From Cystobasidiomycetes sp. EMM_F5 (taxonomy: Eukaryota), in NCBI GenBank assembly GCA_051047955.1, contig JBPGPT010000004.1, positions 186,001 to 250,000 on the forward strand: a stretch of DNA of 64,000 nt, in the 5' to 3' direction. Both the position numbers and the translations under genes were made by a program. Position 1 is the stretch's first letter; each line of letters starts with the position of its first letter. Below the pieces are notes generated by a model. It worked only from the letters and a program-made list of their open reading frames with translations, searched no databases and had not been told where the DNA came from. This document shows positions 27,691-37,433 of this stretch, piece after piece.

Positions 27691-30557
27691 ATGGTGAAGT
27701 CTGCAGCCAAAGCGGCGAGCATACTGCCAGCCGTCCGGAGTGCCGCGAGCAGCACCGTACCCTCAGCATCCTCCGCGACGCTGACGCCCGCCCGGCCAGC
27801 GTGTGCCGTCCGTCTGGCCAGGCAGCTCCACGCAGCCCGCCAGGCAGACATGGCCAGGGATACGCCAGTCAATGCGTGGAAGCCTGGCGACCCCATCGTC
27901 TTTGGCGCCAGCAGCCAGCAGCGAGCTCAGAACCAGCGACGGGCCTCTCCGAGCTCGGGTCAACAATCCGGAATCCTGCAAGTCGCTGGCACTTCGAATA
28001 ACCCCGGCGCAGCTATGAAGCAGCAGCCTATACCCGCAGAGTGGAGCGCCAGCTCGTGGAAGCCCGGAATGGCTATTGATTTCGAAAAACAGCTGGCTCA
28101 AAACAAAGCGATTCCCGCCAAACGAGCAGTGATGCAGCCGATAAAGCCAGCGCAGCCCGTCTCACAGTACGTGGTATCGCAATCCTACCAAGGGAAAGAC
28201 ACGCTCACACATCGTACAGACCGAATCTCCGACAATATCTCGCTCCAGTCAATGCCGTCCAGCGGGGAAACAACGCAAGCAAGGAAGCGTAAGTCTCATC
28301 ATCCTGTAAAGTTTGGCATCTTGCTTATAGTCCTTCAACAAAATCGCCAGCTCCGTTGTCACCAAGAACGACGTTATTTACATTGAAGATAGCTTCGAGA
28401 TTTCTGCAGCAAACGCTACACAAGGTGAATCGTCGGCTGCAGCAAACTCGTCTATCGAGTTCTTGAGCCATCATGACCATACCGCTGCCGCGTTGAAGCA
28501 TTCCGCTTTACTCCATGCCAACCTGTTGGAATCAAAACGCAAGCAACTCGAGGCCGAACAATTATACAAATCCCTTCAACGCTCCGCGCGGTTTGATGCA
28601 GCAAACGACACTAACCAGCAGACGGAACCAGTATGGATACCCCGACGCTGTCACTTTGGTGCAACGGGTACGACAACGAGCCGTGCTTACATGTCAACTA
28701 GCACACGGTCGCAACAAGCCGAGTCTGCTATACTCGCCGAATTTGACTGGAATGACCCCCTTGTTGCCGTTGCTTCTCGGCCTGTAAATGTACAAATTGA
28801 GCCAACGCAGGAGGAGTTCGACGATGACGATTTACCCGAGCTCCCGCCAGTCCAGACGATTGAACAAGCTATCACAGGTCTACCCCTAAAGTCGAGTCGT
28901 TCAGTAAAGAGTAGATCAACAAGCGCCGCAGCCAAGCAGGCTACCTTGCTTGAAAAGCAAGCTGCTCGCGAAGCCAAGGCCGCAAAGAAAGCGGAGAGTG
29001 AAGCCAAAAAAGCCGAAAAACAGTCAGAGATGGAGTATATGCAAAGTAAATATCCGGAATTCTCTTACGATCAGGGTAACTGGGTCACTCCGAAGGTATG
29101 GTACTATCGGGGAGAACAGGCGACTTTCATACTCTGCGATAGTAAGCCTGGCGTGGCGGAAACGGAGCAAAAATCATTGGAAGAAGTCGTCGCGGGTCTG
29201 CAAGGGTGAGTGCACATGCCGTTATGTGTAGAAATCGTGCTGACTTCGTTCACAACCTAGCCCTCTCGGCTTTGACTTGGAGTGGAATATGTGGACTGCG
29301 CGATCGCCGTTTGGGCGACAATGGAAGGGTGCACAAGGCCAGACGGGCTTGATTCAGGTCGGGGACATGAACAATATTGTGCTATATCAGCTCGGAAGCA
29401 GCAGAGGTGAGATCCAGCAATTAGCGACGTGCGTTTCTCATCTCACACTTCGTCGGCCGACAGTAATACCGAAATGCCTTCTGGACATAATTGAGAACCC
29501 AGACGTTCTGAAGATGGGGGTGCAGATAACAGGTAGACTTTTCTGTTTGCTGACAAGCTCGCGGCTGGGCTGATTTGCGTTGCGCGTTGCATCAAGGCGA
29601 TGGTCGGAAACTCACCCGCGATTTTGGGGCGACACCGGCCGGCTTTCTGGAGCTATCGGACATCGCCAAAGCGATAGAACCTGTCAAGATGGGCAATATC
29701 TCGCACAACATCGCTCTTCAGAAGCTGGTCGCGCACTTTTTGGAGCGCTATCTTGTATGTGTACTGTACTGGTCCGAGGACAAAGACTGACAGTCAGCAC
29801 CAGGACAAAGGAGATGCTCGTACATCAAATTGGAATCTCCCGGTCCTGAGCACATCTCAACGGAAATGTAGCTTTCATCAGATCCTACTTGCAAAGGCGT
29901 CGTGAGCTGATGTGAACTGCGCAGACGCTGCCAACGATGTCTTCAGCGCCGTCATGCTGTACAGGCGGATGATAGGCCATGCCGAGATTGACGGCATCGA
30001 GCTCGACATTTCTCGGGCGGTGTCTGATGCGCACAAGGTGGTGCAATCGACTGGAGCGATGGAGTGGAAATGGCGCAAGCGGTCGAATGCAGCCGTCAGA
30101 CGCATGTCTAACGCAAGCCTGCCGGTTGCTGCTGAGAGTACGGAAGCGCCACAGAAGAAGGCAACACGACCTCGAGCCGTTCTGAAGCCTCGAGTCAGCG
30201 CCGCCGTCACTCCGCGACAAAGCGAAGCCTGGTTAGTCAAGCCTACATACCGATGTATCTGATCTTCGCTGACTGTTGCGATGCAGGACCCTATGGCATG
30301 AAGAGCAGAAGGATAGGGCTGAGATTGCACAAATCATGGGCATCAAGGAGACAAGCGTGTGCTCTTACATCTTTGCTGCCTTTACGGCCGATGACTCGCT
30401 CGGATATGATGCAGATCGATTGCGAGCATTGATGGCCAATATGTATATTCGCAGAGATGCAACCGCAACGCTGAGCAAGCTTTTAGGCGAGGAGGTGCTT
30501 CCCGGAATCGACGGTGTCATACCCGAGAAAACTGGAGATTCAAGCGCTTCCGAGTAA
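27691..30557 (+). CDS. WRN/EXD2-type DnaQ 3'-5' exonuclease with C-terminal helix-turn-helix and presequence-like N-terminus
   Basis: ExoI GFDLEW, LIQV, LKMGVQITGDGRKL, LQKLVAHFL, ExoIII SNW...YAANDV; C-terminal AEIAQIMGIKETSVCSYI. Confidence 0.85.
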
Positions 30558-30757: not shown

Positions 30758-32661
30758 CTATCCGTCATAGATCTCCTTCATCATTCCCAACACCACTGCG
30801 GCTTGTCCAGCGAAGTACAGATCGTCAACCATGCTCAACTTGATTAAGCCGTTACTCTGGATCTGACGGGACAATCGTACTGTGGCCTTTTCAGTGGCTA
30901 GCTTGTTGAGAGTCGGCCTGAAATTATTTGCAATGGTTGACAAGATCCAATCATCTACGCGATCAAGGGGAGGAGGAGGGTTGAGACTTCCATCAAACGT
31001 GATTGTAATCTCACCAACTCTCGCATCAGCTTTTGCGAGTACGACCAGTGCATGCGGTTCGGTCGCTTCCTCGAAGATGTTCATGGCCCACTTGATGCTC
31101 GTATCATCGACTTTGACGCGTAGACGTGCACTCCCGCTAACGACATCATGGCCGCATTTATCACGAATAGCGGCTTTTGCACTCGCTTGTGCGACGACAT
31201 CCGCAACTGCCCGGATGCCATCTACCACAATTTCAGCAGTCTCCAACTTTACTTGGTACCAAAGTCTAGCAGAGACGTAGATTGTTCCGCCTGTGGAGAA
31301 GGTCTCATCATGACCCATCTGTACGTACGGCCGGGAGACCTCGCGGAAAGCGTTCTGACTGAGCCCAAATGCAAAGAGTTGGGCAGACGCTTTGATGGGA
31401 GCAAAGTCAGCTGATGGAGTTGGATCGCTAGCTGCTCTGGTTGAGGTGCCAGCCAGGGTTTGAATTGCGAGACGAAGGTCTTGTTTTCCATTCCAGCGAT
31501 GAGACCGGGATCCACGACAGGCTGAGTAGCATTACGAAGCGAGCTGGAACTCTGCTCCTCTTCTGCGTCACTCGAGGCACCTTGTATTTTCCTAACGGTC
31601 AACGGTAGAAGGGTTGGAGCGGGCCATTCGCCTTCGCAGTAGCATGGCAGAGGGAGATCAAGGCTGCGCACCGAAAATACAATGAAGAGGTACGATACTG
31701 TTATTTCGTGCGTTGTGACTTTACGATAGTCGAATCGCTTAAAATCCAGTTCCATATTCTGGACATGGCTCCAATTGTCTGGCATGCTTCGTGACGCAAG
31801 GTAGGCTGGAAGCGCAAATCCGAGGGGCCCTGTCGCAAGTGAAATCTGGGAGAGTTGATACTTGACTTCTGCTTGGAAGTCCGCCATACTGTCGAACGCC
31901 TGCAGAATGCCAGATTCTTCGTAAATCTCAAACGAAATGGATGGCTCGAGGATTTCTGCTCGAGTGAATTGGAGCTGTAGAGTGTCATTTGTAGTTGTGA
32001 CCATGGCTGGGTGGCAGTAGACTCTGATGACTGCTCTGACAACAGCAGATGTGTCAAAATTGCCTGGATTTTTTGGACGGAAGTATAAACGCAGAGCGCC
32101 AGTGACAATAAATGCATTACTGTCCACATCGATGCGCAGAAACGGCCAGGTAGAAGATTCGCTATTTTCGAGACCTAGTTCCATCGTCAGAGTTGCATCC
32201 TTGCCAATCTGGATTGTAGGAGCAGTAAACTTGGAAGACAGAAGCGTAGTGATGGTCGCCTCTGAAATGCCGAAAGCGATTGCGTTGACGGAGAGATCTG
32301 ATTCTGCTGCGGCGATGACATCTCTGGCCGTAGCTGCAACATTTGTGTCCAGCTCGAGCAGGTCTACAGATACCGCAATCGGCACAGCAGGCTGGTCGCC
32401 GCCTATTGAGACAGAGACTTCGCAGGTGTAGTTGATGCCGGGCAGTAGTCTCGGCAAAGAATCCATGCTTGCGATGCTCGGAGTACCAATTGGAGCATCT
32501 CCACCGCTCTGCGAGACCCAAGTCCCGTCTTGCAGCATAACGCGTACTGTAGCGTAAACGTAGACATTTGGTCCAGTAACTGCAGTCGTAACGCGGGAGA
32601 GTGACAAATTCAATTGCCGCGAGACCTGGACGGGACTGGTAAGAAAGTCTTGCTTTTCCAT
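30758..32661 (-). CDS. Orphan ~614-aa protein: N-terminal beta-sandwich plus two predicted BPI/TULIP-like domains
   Basis: ORFs 31249-32661 and 30758-31318 join in frame through a putative 59-nt intron 31522-31580 (GTGCCT...CTCAG) or a -1 frameshift; internal repeat AIAFGISE / LFAFGLSQ. The fold call is inference. Confidence 0.6.
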
Positions 32662-33107
32662 TCTGTGACTCCCTCGACGCGGAAGGTGGTAATGAAGCGT
32701 GCGGGCATGTCAGCCGATGCGAGGGCGAGGGCGAAGGAGTTATGAGAGCAAATCAAGGAACGGGAAAGGTGCAAAGGTCAGTCATTGTCAGCGCTGCAGG
32801 GAGTTTGGTCAGTTGCGGGTCCTGTCTTGGCTCGGGTGTGTGCAGCCCCGAAGCCGCTTGAACGACACGGTGGGTCTGGGATCCTTAAGTTCGAAAGCTT
32901 TCGCAGAGCAATGCGCGCAACATGCTGCAAAGGGCGCAGGCTGTGGGCATGATTGTCGCAAAAAGAAGCTGTCGAAATGGCATATTTTACGGGGAATTTG
33001 CACAAGCAGGAACCCCAGAGTCTTTCATTTTATGATGAGCATCAGCAACCTCGCTACAGAGTACTGACTAGAAGCACAGTCACAGATACTGCCAGTCCAC
33101 AATGCGG

Positions 33108-34444
33108 CTACATAAACATATTGCCAAACCCTCCGGATCCACCCATACCTCCGCCCGGTCCGAAACCACCCTACAATTGTGCATCAGCCTGAATCTGCGA
33201 TGCATGCGATACTTCACATACTCCAAATCCACCTCCTCTTGGATTGAGTGGGTGTGGATTAAATGCGCCCGTCCTCCCAGCACCGCCCTCGTTGTCGAAC
33301 CCCTACAGTGCAGAGTCAGCAAGTCTGGTTGCACCGATTGGCAATTCGCCCGTAAGAGACGTACAGGCGGGGGCATCTCGTCTCCCCAATTCCTTCTCGG
33401 CTGTCCACCTGCATTACCTGGAGCGAATGGACCAACCGGATCAAACCTAGCACCAGGTGGGGCTCCAAGCGGGGGCAAGAAGCCGTCACCTCCCCATGGG
33501 CCCCTGTTGCCCTGACCGCCTGTTCCAGGGATCCGTAGCGGATCGTACTGCTCTCTTTCTCGCTGGAAGAGCGGATGATTTGGTCCGACCAGCATCCCGT
33601 CCCCACCTGCACCTGGCAGACGACCCATTGCCCCGCCTAGAGGATCGAGATCCGATCTCCCAATCTCCAGCGGATTAGATGGTCCTCCTATACCAGGGAG
33701 AGTCGGACGACTGCCAATACCGCGGTCGGGTTCGCCCTCCGGATGATCTGGTCGAGGTCTGGGTGCTGATGGTCCCGCATTGGGAGGTGGAGCAGTCCCA
33801 CCTCCTTGCCTACTATCCCTCTCCTCCTCATATCCTGGCTTGTGTAGACCTATGATAAGTTTTTGAATGATTTGGATCTTGTAGGATGTTATGAGATCGT
33901 GCAGTCGAGACGGACTGTTGAAGAGAGCACCGAAGGAGAAGGAGGATGTGTTGACCTGGTGAGGAAAGGCGGAACGACTGACGTAGTCGGAAGTGAGGAC
34001 ATCCAAAGTAGCAGTCTTGTCGTCCTGAAAGATTTCGAATCATCGTGGATTGCGTCAGCGTGTATATCAGGGAAATGAGATCACAACGCCCACCTCTACG
34101 CCGAGAGCATTGAAGACGACTCTATTTCCGAGTCTGTTGATGCGCACTTCAAAGACCATACTGCTCTGGGTGTGCGTATAGGTAAACGAGAAGCTCTCGT
34201 CGTGCGACTTTGACGCTATCCATTCGTGAGCGAGCCTGTTGCGCTGCTGGGGGTCATCGGACGCGGGCTCAGTCACCGACGCAGGCTTGGTCAAGCGAAA
34301 CCCGAGTGCCGTATGGATCGTATGAGCCAGCAGCGCCAGAGCCGTCACTGGACTGTCAATCTGGACGGCGTGTCCGTCATGCGATGTTAGGTCGACGAGC
34401 AGCTGCGACAGCGCGTCCGGCGCCAATGGATTAGAATCAGACAT
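33108..34444 (-). CDS. PI31 proteasome regulator (PSMF1/Fub1 family)
   Basis: N-terminal FP domain (LLAHTIHTALGFRL, SFTYTHTQSS), IGRSDLDPLG, GMLVGPNHPLF, PPGARFDPVGP, C-terminus GNMFM*. Confidence 0.9.
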
Positions 34445-34581
34445 GGTCCAGTGCAGTAATTGACGGCCAGCTTGGATTGCTGGGTTGTTGGGAAGAAGTC
34501 TGCCAATCTGGCCATTATCCAAGACTGGGTCGCAATCAATCGACGACATTTCCGCACTCACCGTCAAATTGGACAAAAGTT

Positions 34582-35548
34582 ATGCTCAGCTTGGCCAGAC
34601 ATGTAGCGCCGACATCGTCAAGGTCGCATTTGATATCCACATCCAGCGCAGTGCCGCTGCTCGAGCGATTGGCGTGCCGGCATCACCGCTGGCTTCGGAC
34701 TTCCTCTAGAATACGAGCAAATCACTACGAGACGCTCAACTTGCCGCGAACAGCTACGCGACAGCAGATAAAAGCGCAGTTCTATAGAGTAGGCCAGAAT
34801 GCGCTTTGGAAGTGTCAAAATCCAAGGCTGATCTTCCGTTTCAACAGCTTTCTAAAGAGGTTTGTGTGATTGCCTTGCTCCAAACTCCACACGCCATCCC
34901 GTCATGCTATAGACACTCATCTGATGTGCGGCATACCCTCAGTACCACCCCGATGCGAAATCCGGGCAAGAAGCCAAGTTTCAGGCGATAAGTGAAGCCT
35001 ATGCGACGCTGGGACATCCAAATGAGAGACGGGCATACGATGCTGCAATAAGTGCGGCAGGCTCTGGATGGTCTGGACATCATCGGTCAGGCAGCACGAC
35101 CTACGGAACACCGCGGAGCCACACGCAAGGGCAGTATGAAGCGGAAGCCGCGGAACGGCGGGCTCGTGCCAATCAAGCCTGGGAGTATGCTCGACGTACC
35201 AATCCACGGGCCAACAGAAGTAATCCGTTCGCATCGGCCTTCTCAGGCAACGCTTCGGAATCCGCATCAAGTAATCCTTTTCACCATCACGAACATTTCG
35301 ATAGAATGCAAGCTAGAGAAGCATGGAGAGCAGCAAACATGTCGTCAGAGGGAGTGAGGAGGCGTATGGCAGAGCAGGCGTACAAAGTGGCGCAGGAGGA
35401 GAGCCTGAGAAATACCAGCAGTACGATAAGGGCAATACAGGTCATTGCCATGTTTGTCTTCTTCATATGGATCGCCGGAGGGTCGCGGGCAACAGCTCAG
35501 GAGAAGGATGTGGATGATGCGGAGACTGAACGAGAGCAAAGTCTGTGA
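34582..35548 (+). CDS. Mitochondrial J-domain (DnaJ) protein with C-terminal TM
   Basis: Presequence; NHYETLNL...IKAQFYR|LSKE|YHPDAK...FQAISEAYATLG...RRAYD; 12-nt microexon ~34848-34859; TM AIQVIAMFVFFIWIAGG. Confidence 0.88.
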
Positions 35549-35775
35549 GACGGATCAGATTCAAATTTGGGCCAGCATCATCATCTCGGCGTTTCAACTC
35601 TTTTCGCGGCATCGCAATTCGCTGTAGCATCCAAGTTGAGCAGTAAAGTCTGCACGCAATAGTAACGTAGACCAATGCATTCGAAATCACGCAAAAGATT
35701 CTCAAGCTTTTGATTCGGATCTTTCGAATTTTAGCCGAGCTTATCAGGCTGATAGTGAACCAACCCAGTACAAAC

Positions 35776-37433
35776 ATGGCTGAATCCAATTTATCTGCTG
35801 CTGTTGGAGCACCTTCAGACCGCGTAGCCTACCTGCAGTCGCTACGAAGCGTCCGGGAACGGTGCAGCCAGGTCTACGCGCTGGCCGAGCAAAACAAGCT
35901 CGACTATTGGGACGTCGACCTGTCAAAGCAGGCCGAGATTGTGGACTTCTGCTGCCAACTTATAGCTGTGCGTGCGGAACAATTGCTGAGCTTGAATGCC
36001 AGACTGATGCTCTGGGTCTCCGTTTCGCAGCGAGATTACGGTGACAACTATGCCTCGATACCGCCGCATGGACGCCTGCGTCATATCGGAGGAATGGACA
36101 GACTACAGCCTTACTTGGACGCCTGGAGAGACAACGTATCGCCCATAGAGATTACAAGAAGGCTTATCGACTTTTGTGTCGTATCGGTCTTGCTGGATGC
36201 TGGCGCTGGACCTAAATGGACATACAAGGTCAAAGGCAGCGATTTCGCAGTGAGAACACCACTCTACTCATATCTGTCTGCCATGCTGACGTCTCACCTC
36301 ACAGATTGGCCGCTCAGAAGGTCTAGCACTCGCATCACTAGACATGGTCTCGTCCGGGATGTTTAGCGGAGTAGCTGATCAGCCTTTCCGTGTAGACGGT
36401 CTGTCAGAATATCATTTCCGTACGCTCTGACGCTGACTAGTTCACTATGCACTGCAGCCGATGGTCTGACCCGCGTGAAGCCCGAAGATATCGCAGAAGC
36501 CATGCAGGTATCTTCGTCCAACCCAATGGTTGGTATCGAAGGACGCTCATCTCTATTAGTCCAACTTGGCAAAGTTCTGTCGGACCCTAAGAATAAGCAA
36601 TTCTTTGGAAACGCTTCCGACGACACATCTTGTTCCCCGCGACCGGGCAACATGGTAGACTACCTTCGATCGCATCCGACCGCTCAAAGTGTGCCAAGTC
36701 CAACAGGCGTACCTATTGCGGTACCCATAGATGCGCTGTGGAAAGTCATCATTGATGGGCTTGGCGGTGTATGGCCGCCTACGCGCACAAAGCTAGACGG
36801 AGTAGCGCTGGGAGATGTCTGGCAATGCGATTCGCTCAGGAAGACTGTGAATGAGGAGACAGATGCACTCGTGCCCTTTCACAAGCTGTCACAATGGCTC
36901 AAGTGTGTACTAGTCGCCTGGCATACGCGCACAGCTGACTTTCGCTCCTGCGATCAGCTATTCTCTTATTGAAATCATTGAACAAACACTTGGCTGGCGT
37001 TTCACCGGCAAGGAAGTAACGACTGGTCTACCAGAATACCGAAATGGAGGACTTCTCATCGATTTTGGGCTACTCAATTGTCGCCCTCAAATCATCTTGA
37101 AGTCGCTTAACAGCGACAAGACAGCTTCTGCCGACCCTCTGGATCTCCCGCCTCTTCCGGCAAGCCATTCTGCAATCGTCGAGTTCCGTGCCGTTACCGT
37201 TATTTCGCTAGATAGAATAGCAAAAGCCATTTGCGCAAAGCTTGGTGCCGATATGTCGTTGGCACAAGTGCTTGAAGCTGCTACCTGGAAAGGAGTACGT
37301 TGCAAAGCATATCCAATCGCAGTATGCAAGCTGACATTGTTGCCTTTGCACAAAGGGTCGAGAAATAGCAAAGAAGAAGCGAGCAGATGGCGGACCGCCT
37401 ATCAACGTCTTGCTTGACGGAACCGTCTTTTAG
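35776..37433 (+). CDS. URC4: URC4/Urg3-family (DUF1688) uracil catabolism protein
   Basis: YLQSLRSVRERC, IPPHGRLRH, VSVLLDAGAG, GRSEGLA, PFHKLSQWL, TGLPEYRNGGLLID, DGTVF* C-terminus. Confidence 0.88.

What the first reader, a model, noticed from the sequence alone, without database searches (positions are those of the whole stretch)
30758..32661. Orphan leaderless protein with two predicted BPI/TULIP-like lipid-binding barrels
Seen: after a ~105-aa beta-rich domain come two ~200-aa halves that open with the same motif (AIAFGISEATITTLL / LFAFGLSQNAFREV). Each continues through long alternating beta-strands and ends in a long amphipathic helix (FQAEVKYQLSQI / DWILSTIANNFRPTLNKLATEK) followed by strands. 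There is no signal peptide and at most one intron. Knowledge: this strand-helix, long hairpins, long-helix layout in tandem is typical of BPI/LBP/CETP (TULIP) proteins, which include bacterial toxin-cluster OrfX2/P47. Inference: an uncharacterised cytosolic lipid-binding, defence or toxin-like protein, possibly horizontally acquired.
Basis: partly seen in the sequence, partly recalled or inferred. Interest (0 to 1): 0.72.

Follow-up and report, generated by a model that had tools for sequence, protein, structure and literature searches.

The report
Broken copy of unnamed lipid-barrel gene
This yeast carries a twice-frameshifted, probably dead copy of a rare unnamed gene whose intact relatives in scattered fungi and spore-forming bacteria are predicted to fold like the human lipid-binding protein BPI, with a swappable extra domain in front.

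Summary
The fold guess is right; the gene model and the 'orphan' label are wrong. An intact relative (P0015) models at pLDDT 88 as a jelly-roll domain plus two head-to-head TULIP barrels, closest to BPI (Foldseek E 1e-12; Z 12.4, 357 residues, 4.4 Å) and less close to P47/OrfX. Relatives of 620-650 aa occur in nine named fungal genera, and remoter ones in Bacillota, some on plasmids, with a jelly roll, a WD40 propeller or nothing in front. No Pfam, NCBIfam, PADLOC or PHROG family covers the barrels.

In the window the gene lies in three frames. The ancestral start is 32708, not 32661. Two -1 frame breaks fall near 32670-32625 and 31515-31420, and no GT donor with +5 G bridges either. So the 614-aa spliced product is unsupported and this is most likely a recent pseudogene. 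One other fungal locus is also frameshifted.

Unexplained: both break intervals hold a near-identical 21-nt stretch found nowhere else in the genome. No toxin genes were annotated beside the three bacterial loci inspected. Lipid binding is inferred from fold only.

The parts
32610..32708 (-). N-terminal piece: ancestral ATG (32708) and first strand of the jelly-roll domain; this frame stops at 32610-32612
   Evidence: translation; rank 1 of 1505; N-terminal profile positions 1-14 (weak alone, iE 2.4)
32624..32669 (-). Interval holding frame break 1 (-1 shift); exact place not resolved
   Evidence: score plateau; the 113 nt from ATG to the conserved Arg match relatives' 37-42 residues, leaving no room for an intron
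32643..32663 (-).
32347..32661 (-). Rest of the jelly-roll beta-sandwich (residues 1-105 of P0001), lacking the first strand
   Evidence: model; PHR-domain and capsid jelly-roll matches Z 8-9
31660..32346 (-). First TULIP barrel with interface strands (P0001 residues 106-334)
   Evidence: YceB Z 10.6 (161 aa, 3.8 A), CETP Z 9.1 (194 aa, 4.6 A), BPI Z 8.6 (183 aa, 3.1 A)
31633..31644 (-). Conserved CxC motif after barrel 1
   Evidence: Cys in 48 of 49 and 47 of 49 non-gap rows (52 rows in all)
31419..31515 (-). Interval in the variable linker holding frame break 2 (-1 shift); exact place not resolved
   Evidence: plateau; anchor spacing 86.67 codons against 52-86 in 13 of 14 relatives measured
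31474..31493 (-). Copy 2 of the near-repeat
30758..31417 (-). C-terminal piece: second TULIP barrel and closing strands, stop at 30758-30760
   Evidence: profile 404-617, iE 4e-92; 44-55% identity to four relatives; fold from the relative's model
31522..31580 (-).
   Evidence: no +5 G, no branch-point match

Best explanation
The locus is a recently disabled (twice-frameshifted) copy of an unnamed accessory gene family. Intact members are soluble, leaderless, acidic proteins of about 480-850 aa: two TULIP barrels joined head to head like BPI/CETP, a conserved CxC motif between them, and an exchangeable N-terminal module (jelly roll in fungi and some Bacillota, WD40 propeller in others, or none). 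SHOWN: homology, three-frame layout, lack of a good splice solution, predicted fold, module swapping, stand-alone gene context. INFERRED: the barrels bind lipids or other hydrophobic molecules and the front module aims the protein at a membrane, glycan or partner; the likeliest use is an optional role in biotic conflict or in sequestering hydrophobic compounds, which would explain patchy presence, plasmid carriage and repeated decay (about 0.5 for this functional reading on its own). In this yeast no full-length protein is expected.
For: Three frames, with the ancestral ATG ranked 1 of 1505. No GT donor with +5 G among the candidates bridging either break, and 0 canonical intron-like elements on the coding strand of the gene against 46 in the window. 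Anchor spacings fit an intron-free gene. A separate assembly (Logan contig of 245,844 bases, shorter than the window's contig) gives the same 470-aa ORF. A named record identical in both frames (P0056) comes from an Illumina assembly at 142x (PMC12697161, passages). L004 is 95-98% identical to an intact relative yet frameshifted in its linker. Fold. Module swapping. Conserved columns kept: 52 of 60 and 35 of 39, within the range of 15 intact relatives, which fits recent loss.
Against: No in-frame stop within either large piece, and conservation is high. The shared 21-nt stretch in both break intervals is not explained by random decay (0 of 19,881 random window pairs score as high). The NCBI model P0056 does splice the locus into a 582-aa protein, although it drops about 95 conserved profile positions (366-461). 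No reads or transcripts were seen. Lipid binding rests on fold alone (7-14% identity to the structural matches), and the cavity could not be inspected.
Confidence: 0.78

Rival explanations
1. Functional spliced gene, as the first reader (614 aa) or the NCBI model (582 aa) proposed.
For: GT-AG pairs that give an open frame from 32661 exist; linker lengths vary from 52 to 86 residues in relatives, so a short intron in the linker is length-compatible; an annotation pipeline called a spliced gene.
Against: None of the GT donors bridging either break has +5 G; GC donors with +5 G have no branch match. Break 1 leaves no length for an intron. The NCBI model removes the conserved opening of barrel 2. 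Relatives called as single ORFs cover the whole length.
Confidence: 0.05
2. Truncated but useful product: translation from ATG 32661 gives a 470-aa protein with a jelly roll lacking its first strand, one complete TULIP barrel and an out-of-frame tail.
For: That ATG has A at -3 and G at +4 (context rule recalled). The piece models at pLDDT 91. Single-barrel TULIPs exist (YceB, SPLUNC1 matches).
Against: An upstream ATG at 32708 opens a 32-codon frame overlapping it. About 120 residues after the CxC motif match nothing in the family. The C-terminal piece is still conserved, as expected if both were under selection together until recently.
Confidence: 0.07
3. Programmed recoding: the 21-nt near-repeat marks two sites of ribosomal frameshifting or transcriptional slippage that let a little full-length protein be made.
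For: Both breaks are -1 shifts and both intervals hold the repeat (0 of 19,881 random pairs); the pattern occurs only at these two places in 18.3 Mb; pieces carry no stops and keep conserved residues.
Against: No canonical slippery heptamer in the zero frame at either break, one relaxed match at break 2 only. No stable downstream structure (z -0.44 to +0.80 in 4 of 4 folds). Relatives are single ORFs. The relative L004 breaks elsewhere with no comparable repeat (best score 23). The intervals were drawn after the repeat was noticed, and 2 of 32 other 2-kb stretches hold some repeat of equal score.
Confidence: 0.04
4. Assembly or sequencing error; the gene is intact in the cell.
For: Both intervals contain short A-runs. 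Raw reads were not examined.
Against: A second assembly gives the same 470-aa ORF; the identical named record is from 142x Illumina data, where indel errors are rare (recalled). The assemblies may share reads, so they are not fully independent.
Confidence: 0.04
5. On function: intact members are P47/OrfX-like toxin accessories or membrane-active toxins against invertebrates or microbes.
For: P47/OrfX are the next fold matches (E 1e-8 to 1e-4). Hosts include Bacillus cereus group, B. wiedmannii bv. thuringiensis and Lysinibacillus sphaericus. P47 is found fused to lectin-like domains (PMC7020563, passages), like the module swapping here.
Against: No PF06597 match in 52 members. No toxin, orfX or p47 gene annotated near 3 of 3 plasmid loci, nor in the listed annotation of the B. 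wiedmannii plasmid (many neighbours are 'hypothetical', 14 scanned by Pfam). Two-barrel fit is worse (rmsd 9-12 A) than to BPI (4.4 A). No catalytic toxin domain seen.
Confidence: 0.2

Closest known systems
BPI/LBP/CETP family (1ewf, 1bp1, 4m4d, 2obd; PF01273, PF02886)
   Same: Two TULIP barrels in the same relative arrangement: 357 residues aligned at 4.4 A, Z 12.4 to BPI; 358 at 5.0 A, Z 10.4 to CETP; top five Foldseek hits.
   Different: 7-11% identity, no Pfam match, no signal-peptide-like N-terminus, net acidic (-12 to -26 in 9 of 9), extra N-terminal jelly-roll or WD40 module, CxC linker; found in fungi and bacteria.
P47/OrfX2/OrfX3 (5wix, 6ekt, 8fbd; PF06597)
   Same: Bacterial two-TULIP proteins (Z 7.5-8.8); P47 can carry fused binding domains (PMC7020563, passages); Pfam lists some fungal P47 homologues (PMC6791001, passage).
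   Different: Poorer global fit (rmsd 9.0-12.3 A); P47/OrfX barrels are side by side (PMC6791001); no PF06597 match; no orfX-p47 cluster or toxin gene beside the loci inspected.
DUF4403 (PF14356), bacterial BPI-like pseudodimer
   Same: Bacterial, two barrels head to head (PMC6791001, passages); Atlas model match TM 0.40/0.50.
   Different: DUF4403 is exported and mostly lipid-anchored in diderms; this family is leaderless and has no PF14356 match.
YceB/DUF1439 (3l6i)
   Same: Best single-barrel match to the window's own first barrel, Z 10.6, 161 residues, 3.8 A.
   Different: Single-barrel lipoprotein; 14% identity.

Membership tests
TULIP superfamily | Long helix wrapped by a twisted antiparallel beta-sheet | tested here: met
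   Predicted models of P0015 (pLDDT 88) and P0001 (pLDDT 91); Foldseek E 1e-12; Z 12.4 and 10.6
TULIP superfamily | Hydrophobic cavity that binds lipid | not testable with these tools
BPI/LBP/CETP family | Two barrels head to head around a central sheet | tested here: met
   357 residues spanning BPI 1-456 at 4.4 A; predicted model of a relative, not of the window's broken copy
BPI/LBP/CETP family | Match to PF01273/PF02886 | tested here: not met
   0 of 52 members among the 25 families listed at E<=0.1; window pieces none
BPI/LBP/CETP family | Secretion signal (recalled feature) | tested here: not met
   Hydropathy proxy only, 23 of 23 without a hydrophobic N-terminus
P47/OrfX (PF06597) | Profile match | tested here: not met
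   Atlas feature score to a P47-like cluster 0.76, below lead level
P47/OrfX (PF06597) | Side-by-side barrel arrangement | tested here: inconclusive
   Global rmsd 9.0-12.3 A against 4.4 A for BPI favours head to head, but rests on a predicted inter-domain angle
P47/OrfX (PF06597) | Gene in an orfX-p47 cluster beside toxin genes | tested here: not met
   3 of 3 plasmid loci, the window and L004 show none by annotation or Pfam; many bacterial neighbours are unannotated
DUF4403 (PF14356) | Profile match and export/lipoprotein signal | tested here: not met
SMP-domain TULIPs of fungi | Membrane anchor and SMP profile match (recalled features) | tested here: not met
   No SMP family listed; no hydrophobic N-terminus (whole-protein 19-residue maxima 1.2-2.0, so two borderline internal stretches)
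Intact protein-coding gene | One open frame from ancestral start to stop, directly or after canonical splicing | tested here: not met

The most novel reading that the evidence does not exclude
An undescribed branch of soluble, leaderless BPI-like TULIP proteins with exchangeable targeting modules moves among Bacillota plasmids and fungi as a lipid-directed conflict or detoxification factor, and in this yeast the duplicated 21-nt element is a recoding signal that throttles expression by two -1 shifts instead of marking decay. The family half alone (undescribed modular TULIP branch shared by fungi and bacteria) has probability about 0.75 and would deserve about 0.55; the figure given is for both halves together.
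Probability: 0.04. Interest if true: 0.85.

Novelty: new variant of a known kind. Interest (0 to 1): 0.5.

Why it matters
The TULIP fold is well known, but this family is covered by no profile library searched and was not found in five literature searches aimed at it. It would add a soluble, unsecreted BPI-shaped protein in fungi and monoderm bacteria with a modular front end, a testable case for what non-exported two-barrel TULIPs do and for how the BPI arrangement is shared between bacteria and eukaryotes. The copy in this window is probably dead, so its value is as a pointer to the family, as a correction of a public gene model (P0056), and for the unexplained repeat at both frame breaks.

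Tried and rejected
Profile libraries: Pfam on window pieces and on 11 and 52 members gave no hit to the barrels (only WD40 families in 3 of 52); NCBIfam best E 0.004, 7 single-member weak hits; PADLOC 0 and PHROGs 0. PDB by sequence: 0, 0 and 3 weak unrelated hits. Atlas by features: best 0.89 and 0.81, unnamed clusters, leads only.

An 80-nt intron-like stretch from 31671 was considered by eye and dropped: it would remove the conserved segment ending in CxC. Paralogues in the own genome: none for either piece. The repeat as a genome-wide element: only the two defining sites. Slippery sites and downstream RNA structure: not found.

Bacterial genome scans found no confirmed locus (26 and 29 pattern matches, 0 confirmed); phages none; the metagenome scan confirmed 1 of 80 stretches. 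The bacterial-type profile search returned only 4 proteins.

Trees: monophyly of Sordariales (p 0.14), Sordariomycetes (p 0.08) and the basidiomycete-type rows (p 0.25) was not rejected. 'Intronless, hence foreign' was dropped: the window holds other stop-free frames of 575-798 aa. Earlier scan findings: three look-ups, nothing shown. No complex prediction was run.

Full report
OBSERVATION. The region is a minus-strand coding stretch in a fungal genome, between a convergent gene ending near 30557 and a PI31 proteasome-regulator gene (33080-34579; Pfam hits), followed by DnaJ and DUF1688 genes. Two long frames cover it (31249-32709 and 30758-31531). Its 614-aa product corresponds to an intron at 31580-31522. 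BLASTP between the halves is not significant (E 11), but profile comparison of the family's two barrels picks out exactly the quoted opening motif (19 columns, score 30.0 against 9.7-15.6 for 20 shuffles; probability 25%).

NOT AN ORPHAN. The middle piece finds 10 clusters at 90% identity and 47 representatives at 50% (27 at E<=1e-10), each count including the window's own ORF. Named fungal relatives are Naganishia, Aspergillus lentulus, A. fijiensis, Penicillium expansum, Exophiala, Zopfia, Podospora, Cercophora, Bionectria and Paraphoma, at 36-48% identity to the window pieces for the nine compared. Named bacterial relatives are Bacillus cereus group, Wukongibacter and a Pseudobdellovibrionaceae bacterium (5 of those 10 clusters carried an organism name), and plasmid genes of Paenibacillus polymyxa, Bacillus wiedmannii and Lysinibacillus sphaericus. 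Many rows have no taxon. The word-limited searches give lower bounds, but so few fungal hits imply a patchy family (inference). A record identical in both frames, P0056 (NCBI KAL7009057.1), is from a Cystobasidiomycetes yeast. The genome holds no second copy.

THE GENE IS BROKEN TWICE. Relatives are continuous proteins of 620-650 aa covering both frames. Their N-termini match a third frame: ATG 32708 ranks 1 of 1505 ATG-started stop-free 13-mers in the window (score 16.5, next 9.6), while ATG 32661 ranks 660. That frame stops after 32 codons. From this ATG to the first conserved Arg there are 113 nt, against 37-42 residues in 12 relatives, so there is no room for an intron. Between the CxC motif and the opening of barrel 2 there are 86.67 codons, against 52-86 in 13 of 14 relatives (one not measurable), so length alone does not exclude an intron there. 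Splice signals argue against one: none of the GT donors able to bridge either break has +5 G, the GC donors with +5 G have no branch match, and a strict scan finds 0 intron-like elements on the gene's coding strand against 46 in the window (the scan presupposes the consensus, which is recalled). Both breaks are -1 shifts; scoring with X at the break places them only broadly, at about 32669-32624 and 31515-31419. The NCBI model avoids the breaks by splicing out profile positions 366-461, including the conserved start of barrel 2, and is probably wrong.

ERROR OR REAL. A Logan contig of 245,844 bases, shorter than the window's contig and so a different assembly, yields the same 470-aa ORF. The named record P0056 comes from Illumina data at 142x (PMC12697161; six passages seen). 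These may share reads. No reads were examined. The pieces contain no in-frame stops and keep 52 of 60 and 35 of 39 conserved columns, within the range of 15 intact relatives, so the loss is recent. Decay is not unique: the one relative whose DNA I obtained, L004, is 95-98% identical to intact P0061 yet changes frame in its linker. Paraphoma (P0024, P0073), B. cereus (P0075, P0074) and P0050 look split or truncated from their proteins; their DNA was not checked.

AN UNEXPLAINED REPEAT. Both break intervals hold a near-identical stretch (32663-32643 and 31493-31474; 19 matches in 21 columns). Of 19,881 random window pairs of the same sizes, 0 score as high; but 2 of 32 other 2-kb stretches hold some repeat of that score, and I drew the intervals after noticing it. 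The pattern occurs only at these two sites in the genome, so it is not a dispersed element. There is no canonical slippery heptamer at either break (one relaxed match at break 2) and no stable downstream structure. L004 has no such repeat. Chance, or repeat-templated mutation, is more likely than recoding (inference).

FOLD. Intact P0015, with 52 aligned sequences, models at pLDDT 88.2, pTM 0.87, with only the linker disordered. Foldseek ranks BPI, LBP and CETP first (E 1e-12 to 7e-10, TM by target 0.33-0.49), then P47 and OrfX proteins. The second aligner gives BPI Z 12.4 (357 residues, 4.4 A), CETP 10.4 (358, 5.0 A), P47 8.8 (333, 9.0 A), OrfX3 7.6 (320, 12.3 A); residues 1-121 match PHR, capsid, CBM and other jelly rolls at Z 7-9, a common fold that names no function. 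The window's own middle piece models at pLDDT 91 as jelly roll plus one barrel (YceB Z 10.6, CETP 9.1, BPI 8.6). The Atlas model of P0007 also matches CETP-like clusters (TM 0.47/0.57). The window's C-terminal piece was not folded by itself.

ANATOMY AND CONTEXT OF THE FAMILY. Members lack hydrophobic N-termini (23 of 23, proxy only), are acidic (9 of 9) and keep a CxC motif and a PD.W motif. The front module varies: jelly-roll-sized in fungi and some Bacillota (by length and alignment; only the fungal type was folded), WD40 in 3 of 52 members and in the L. sphaericus protein, or absent in the 480-500-aa forms. The three plasmid loci show stand-alone genes among hypothetical, integrase and plasmid genes, with no toxin, orfX or p47 annotation; 14 neighbours scanned by Pfam gave no such family. 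L004 sits between housekeeping genes (GH125, COG4).

HISTORY. In the barrel-1 tree (40 rows: 39 of 43 relatives long enough plus the window; LG+G4, midpoint root) all named fungal rows form one branch (99/96) with the window copy at its base, and the named bacteria lie outside it. The barrel-2 quick tree agrees on a fungal group but places the window copy differently. Within fungi the tree departs from taxonomy: Zopfia and Exophiala share 87% identity, two Aspergillus species 43%, and Eurotiales monophyly is rejected (p-AU 8e-5; group named after seeing the tree; three other groupings not rejected). This fits transfer between fungi or old paralogy with loss. A bacterial origin is plausible but the tree is unrooted and the basal rows are unnamed. 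Nothing marks this copy as recently acquired (GC3 0.51-0.52).

MECHANISM. Best reading (0.78): a recent pseudogene of a family of soluble two-barrel TULIP proteins. TULIP barrels form a hydrophobic cavity for lipids, and P47 aggregates liposomes (PMC13030710, passages); monoderm TULIPs have been proposed to capture or remove hydrophobic molecules (PMC6791001, passages). I infer that intact members bind lipid-like ligands and use the front module for targeting, as optional conflict or detoxification factors. The acidic charge argues against BPI-style cationic killing (BPI's charge is recalled). A toxin-accessory role is a minority reading (0.2).

NOVELTY. It works like a BPI-type TULIP by fold but fails the membership tests for BPI/LBP/CETP, P47/OrfX, DUF4403 and SMP profiles. 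Five literature searches combining TULIP/BPI with fungi, P47, horizontal transfer, Foldseek or jelly roll listed 1, 2, 6, 0 and 1 papers; none describes this family by title or abstract start, and only PMC6791001 among them was read further (12 of 24 passages). PMC7020563 was read in passages. The library omits most subscription papers and no supplements were read; the family could be listed in a supplement or in Pfam releases newer than the copy searched. Verdict: new variant of a known kind, interest 0.5: an apparently undescribed modular TULIP family, seen here as a dead copy with one odd feature.

Noticed in passing
window 32663-32643 and 31493-31474 (-): Near-identical 21-nt stretch in both frame-break intervals, unique to these two sites in the genome; cause unknown.
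   Followed up: partly
P0056 (NCBI KAL7009057.1) against window 31330-31252: The public gene model splices out the conserved opening of barrel 2 and uses a different start; probably an annotation artefact that hides a pseudogene.
   Followed up: yes
L004 8001-9864: Ascomycete-type relative, 95-98% identical to intact P0061, frameshifted by a short deletion in the linker; flanked by GH125 and COG4 genes.
   Followed up: yes
L007 19158-21704: Lysinibacillus sphaericus plasmid pSSII-1 gene encoding an 848-aa WD40 propeller fused to the two-barrel core; similar fusions in P0045, P0049, P0053.
   Followed up: partly
P0065 (Zopfia) and P0067 (Exophiala): 87% identity across two fungal classes, while two Aspergillus copies share 43%; suggests transfer between fungi or hidden paralogy.
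   Followed up: partly
window 28331-30557 (+): Convergent multi-exon neighbour with a weak C-terminal HTH_40 hit (E 0.009); looks like a WRN-type 3'-5' exonuclease gene by recall, not confirmed by Pfam on the exon pieces.
   Followed up: partly
window 33080-36366: Ordinary neighbours: PI31 proteasome regulator (-), DnaJ-domain gene (+), DUF1688 gene (+).
   Followed up: yes
structure row 1: An unnamed 524-aa Atlas cluster, mostly archaeal, was the nearest predicted structure to P0007 (TM 0.50/0.59); possibly another undescribed two-barrel TULIP family.
   Followed up: no
L003 5873-9571: The B. wiedmannii plasmid copy lies next to an AimR-like regulator and a peptide-binding protein gene, divergently transcribed.
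   Followed up: no
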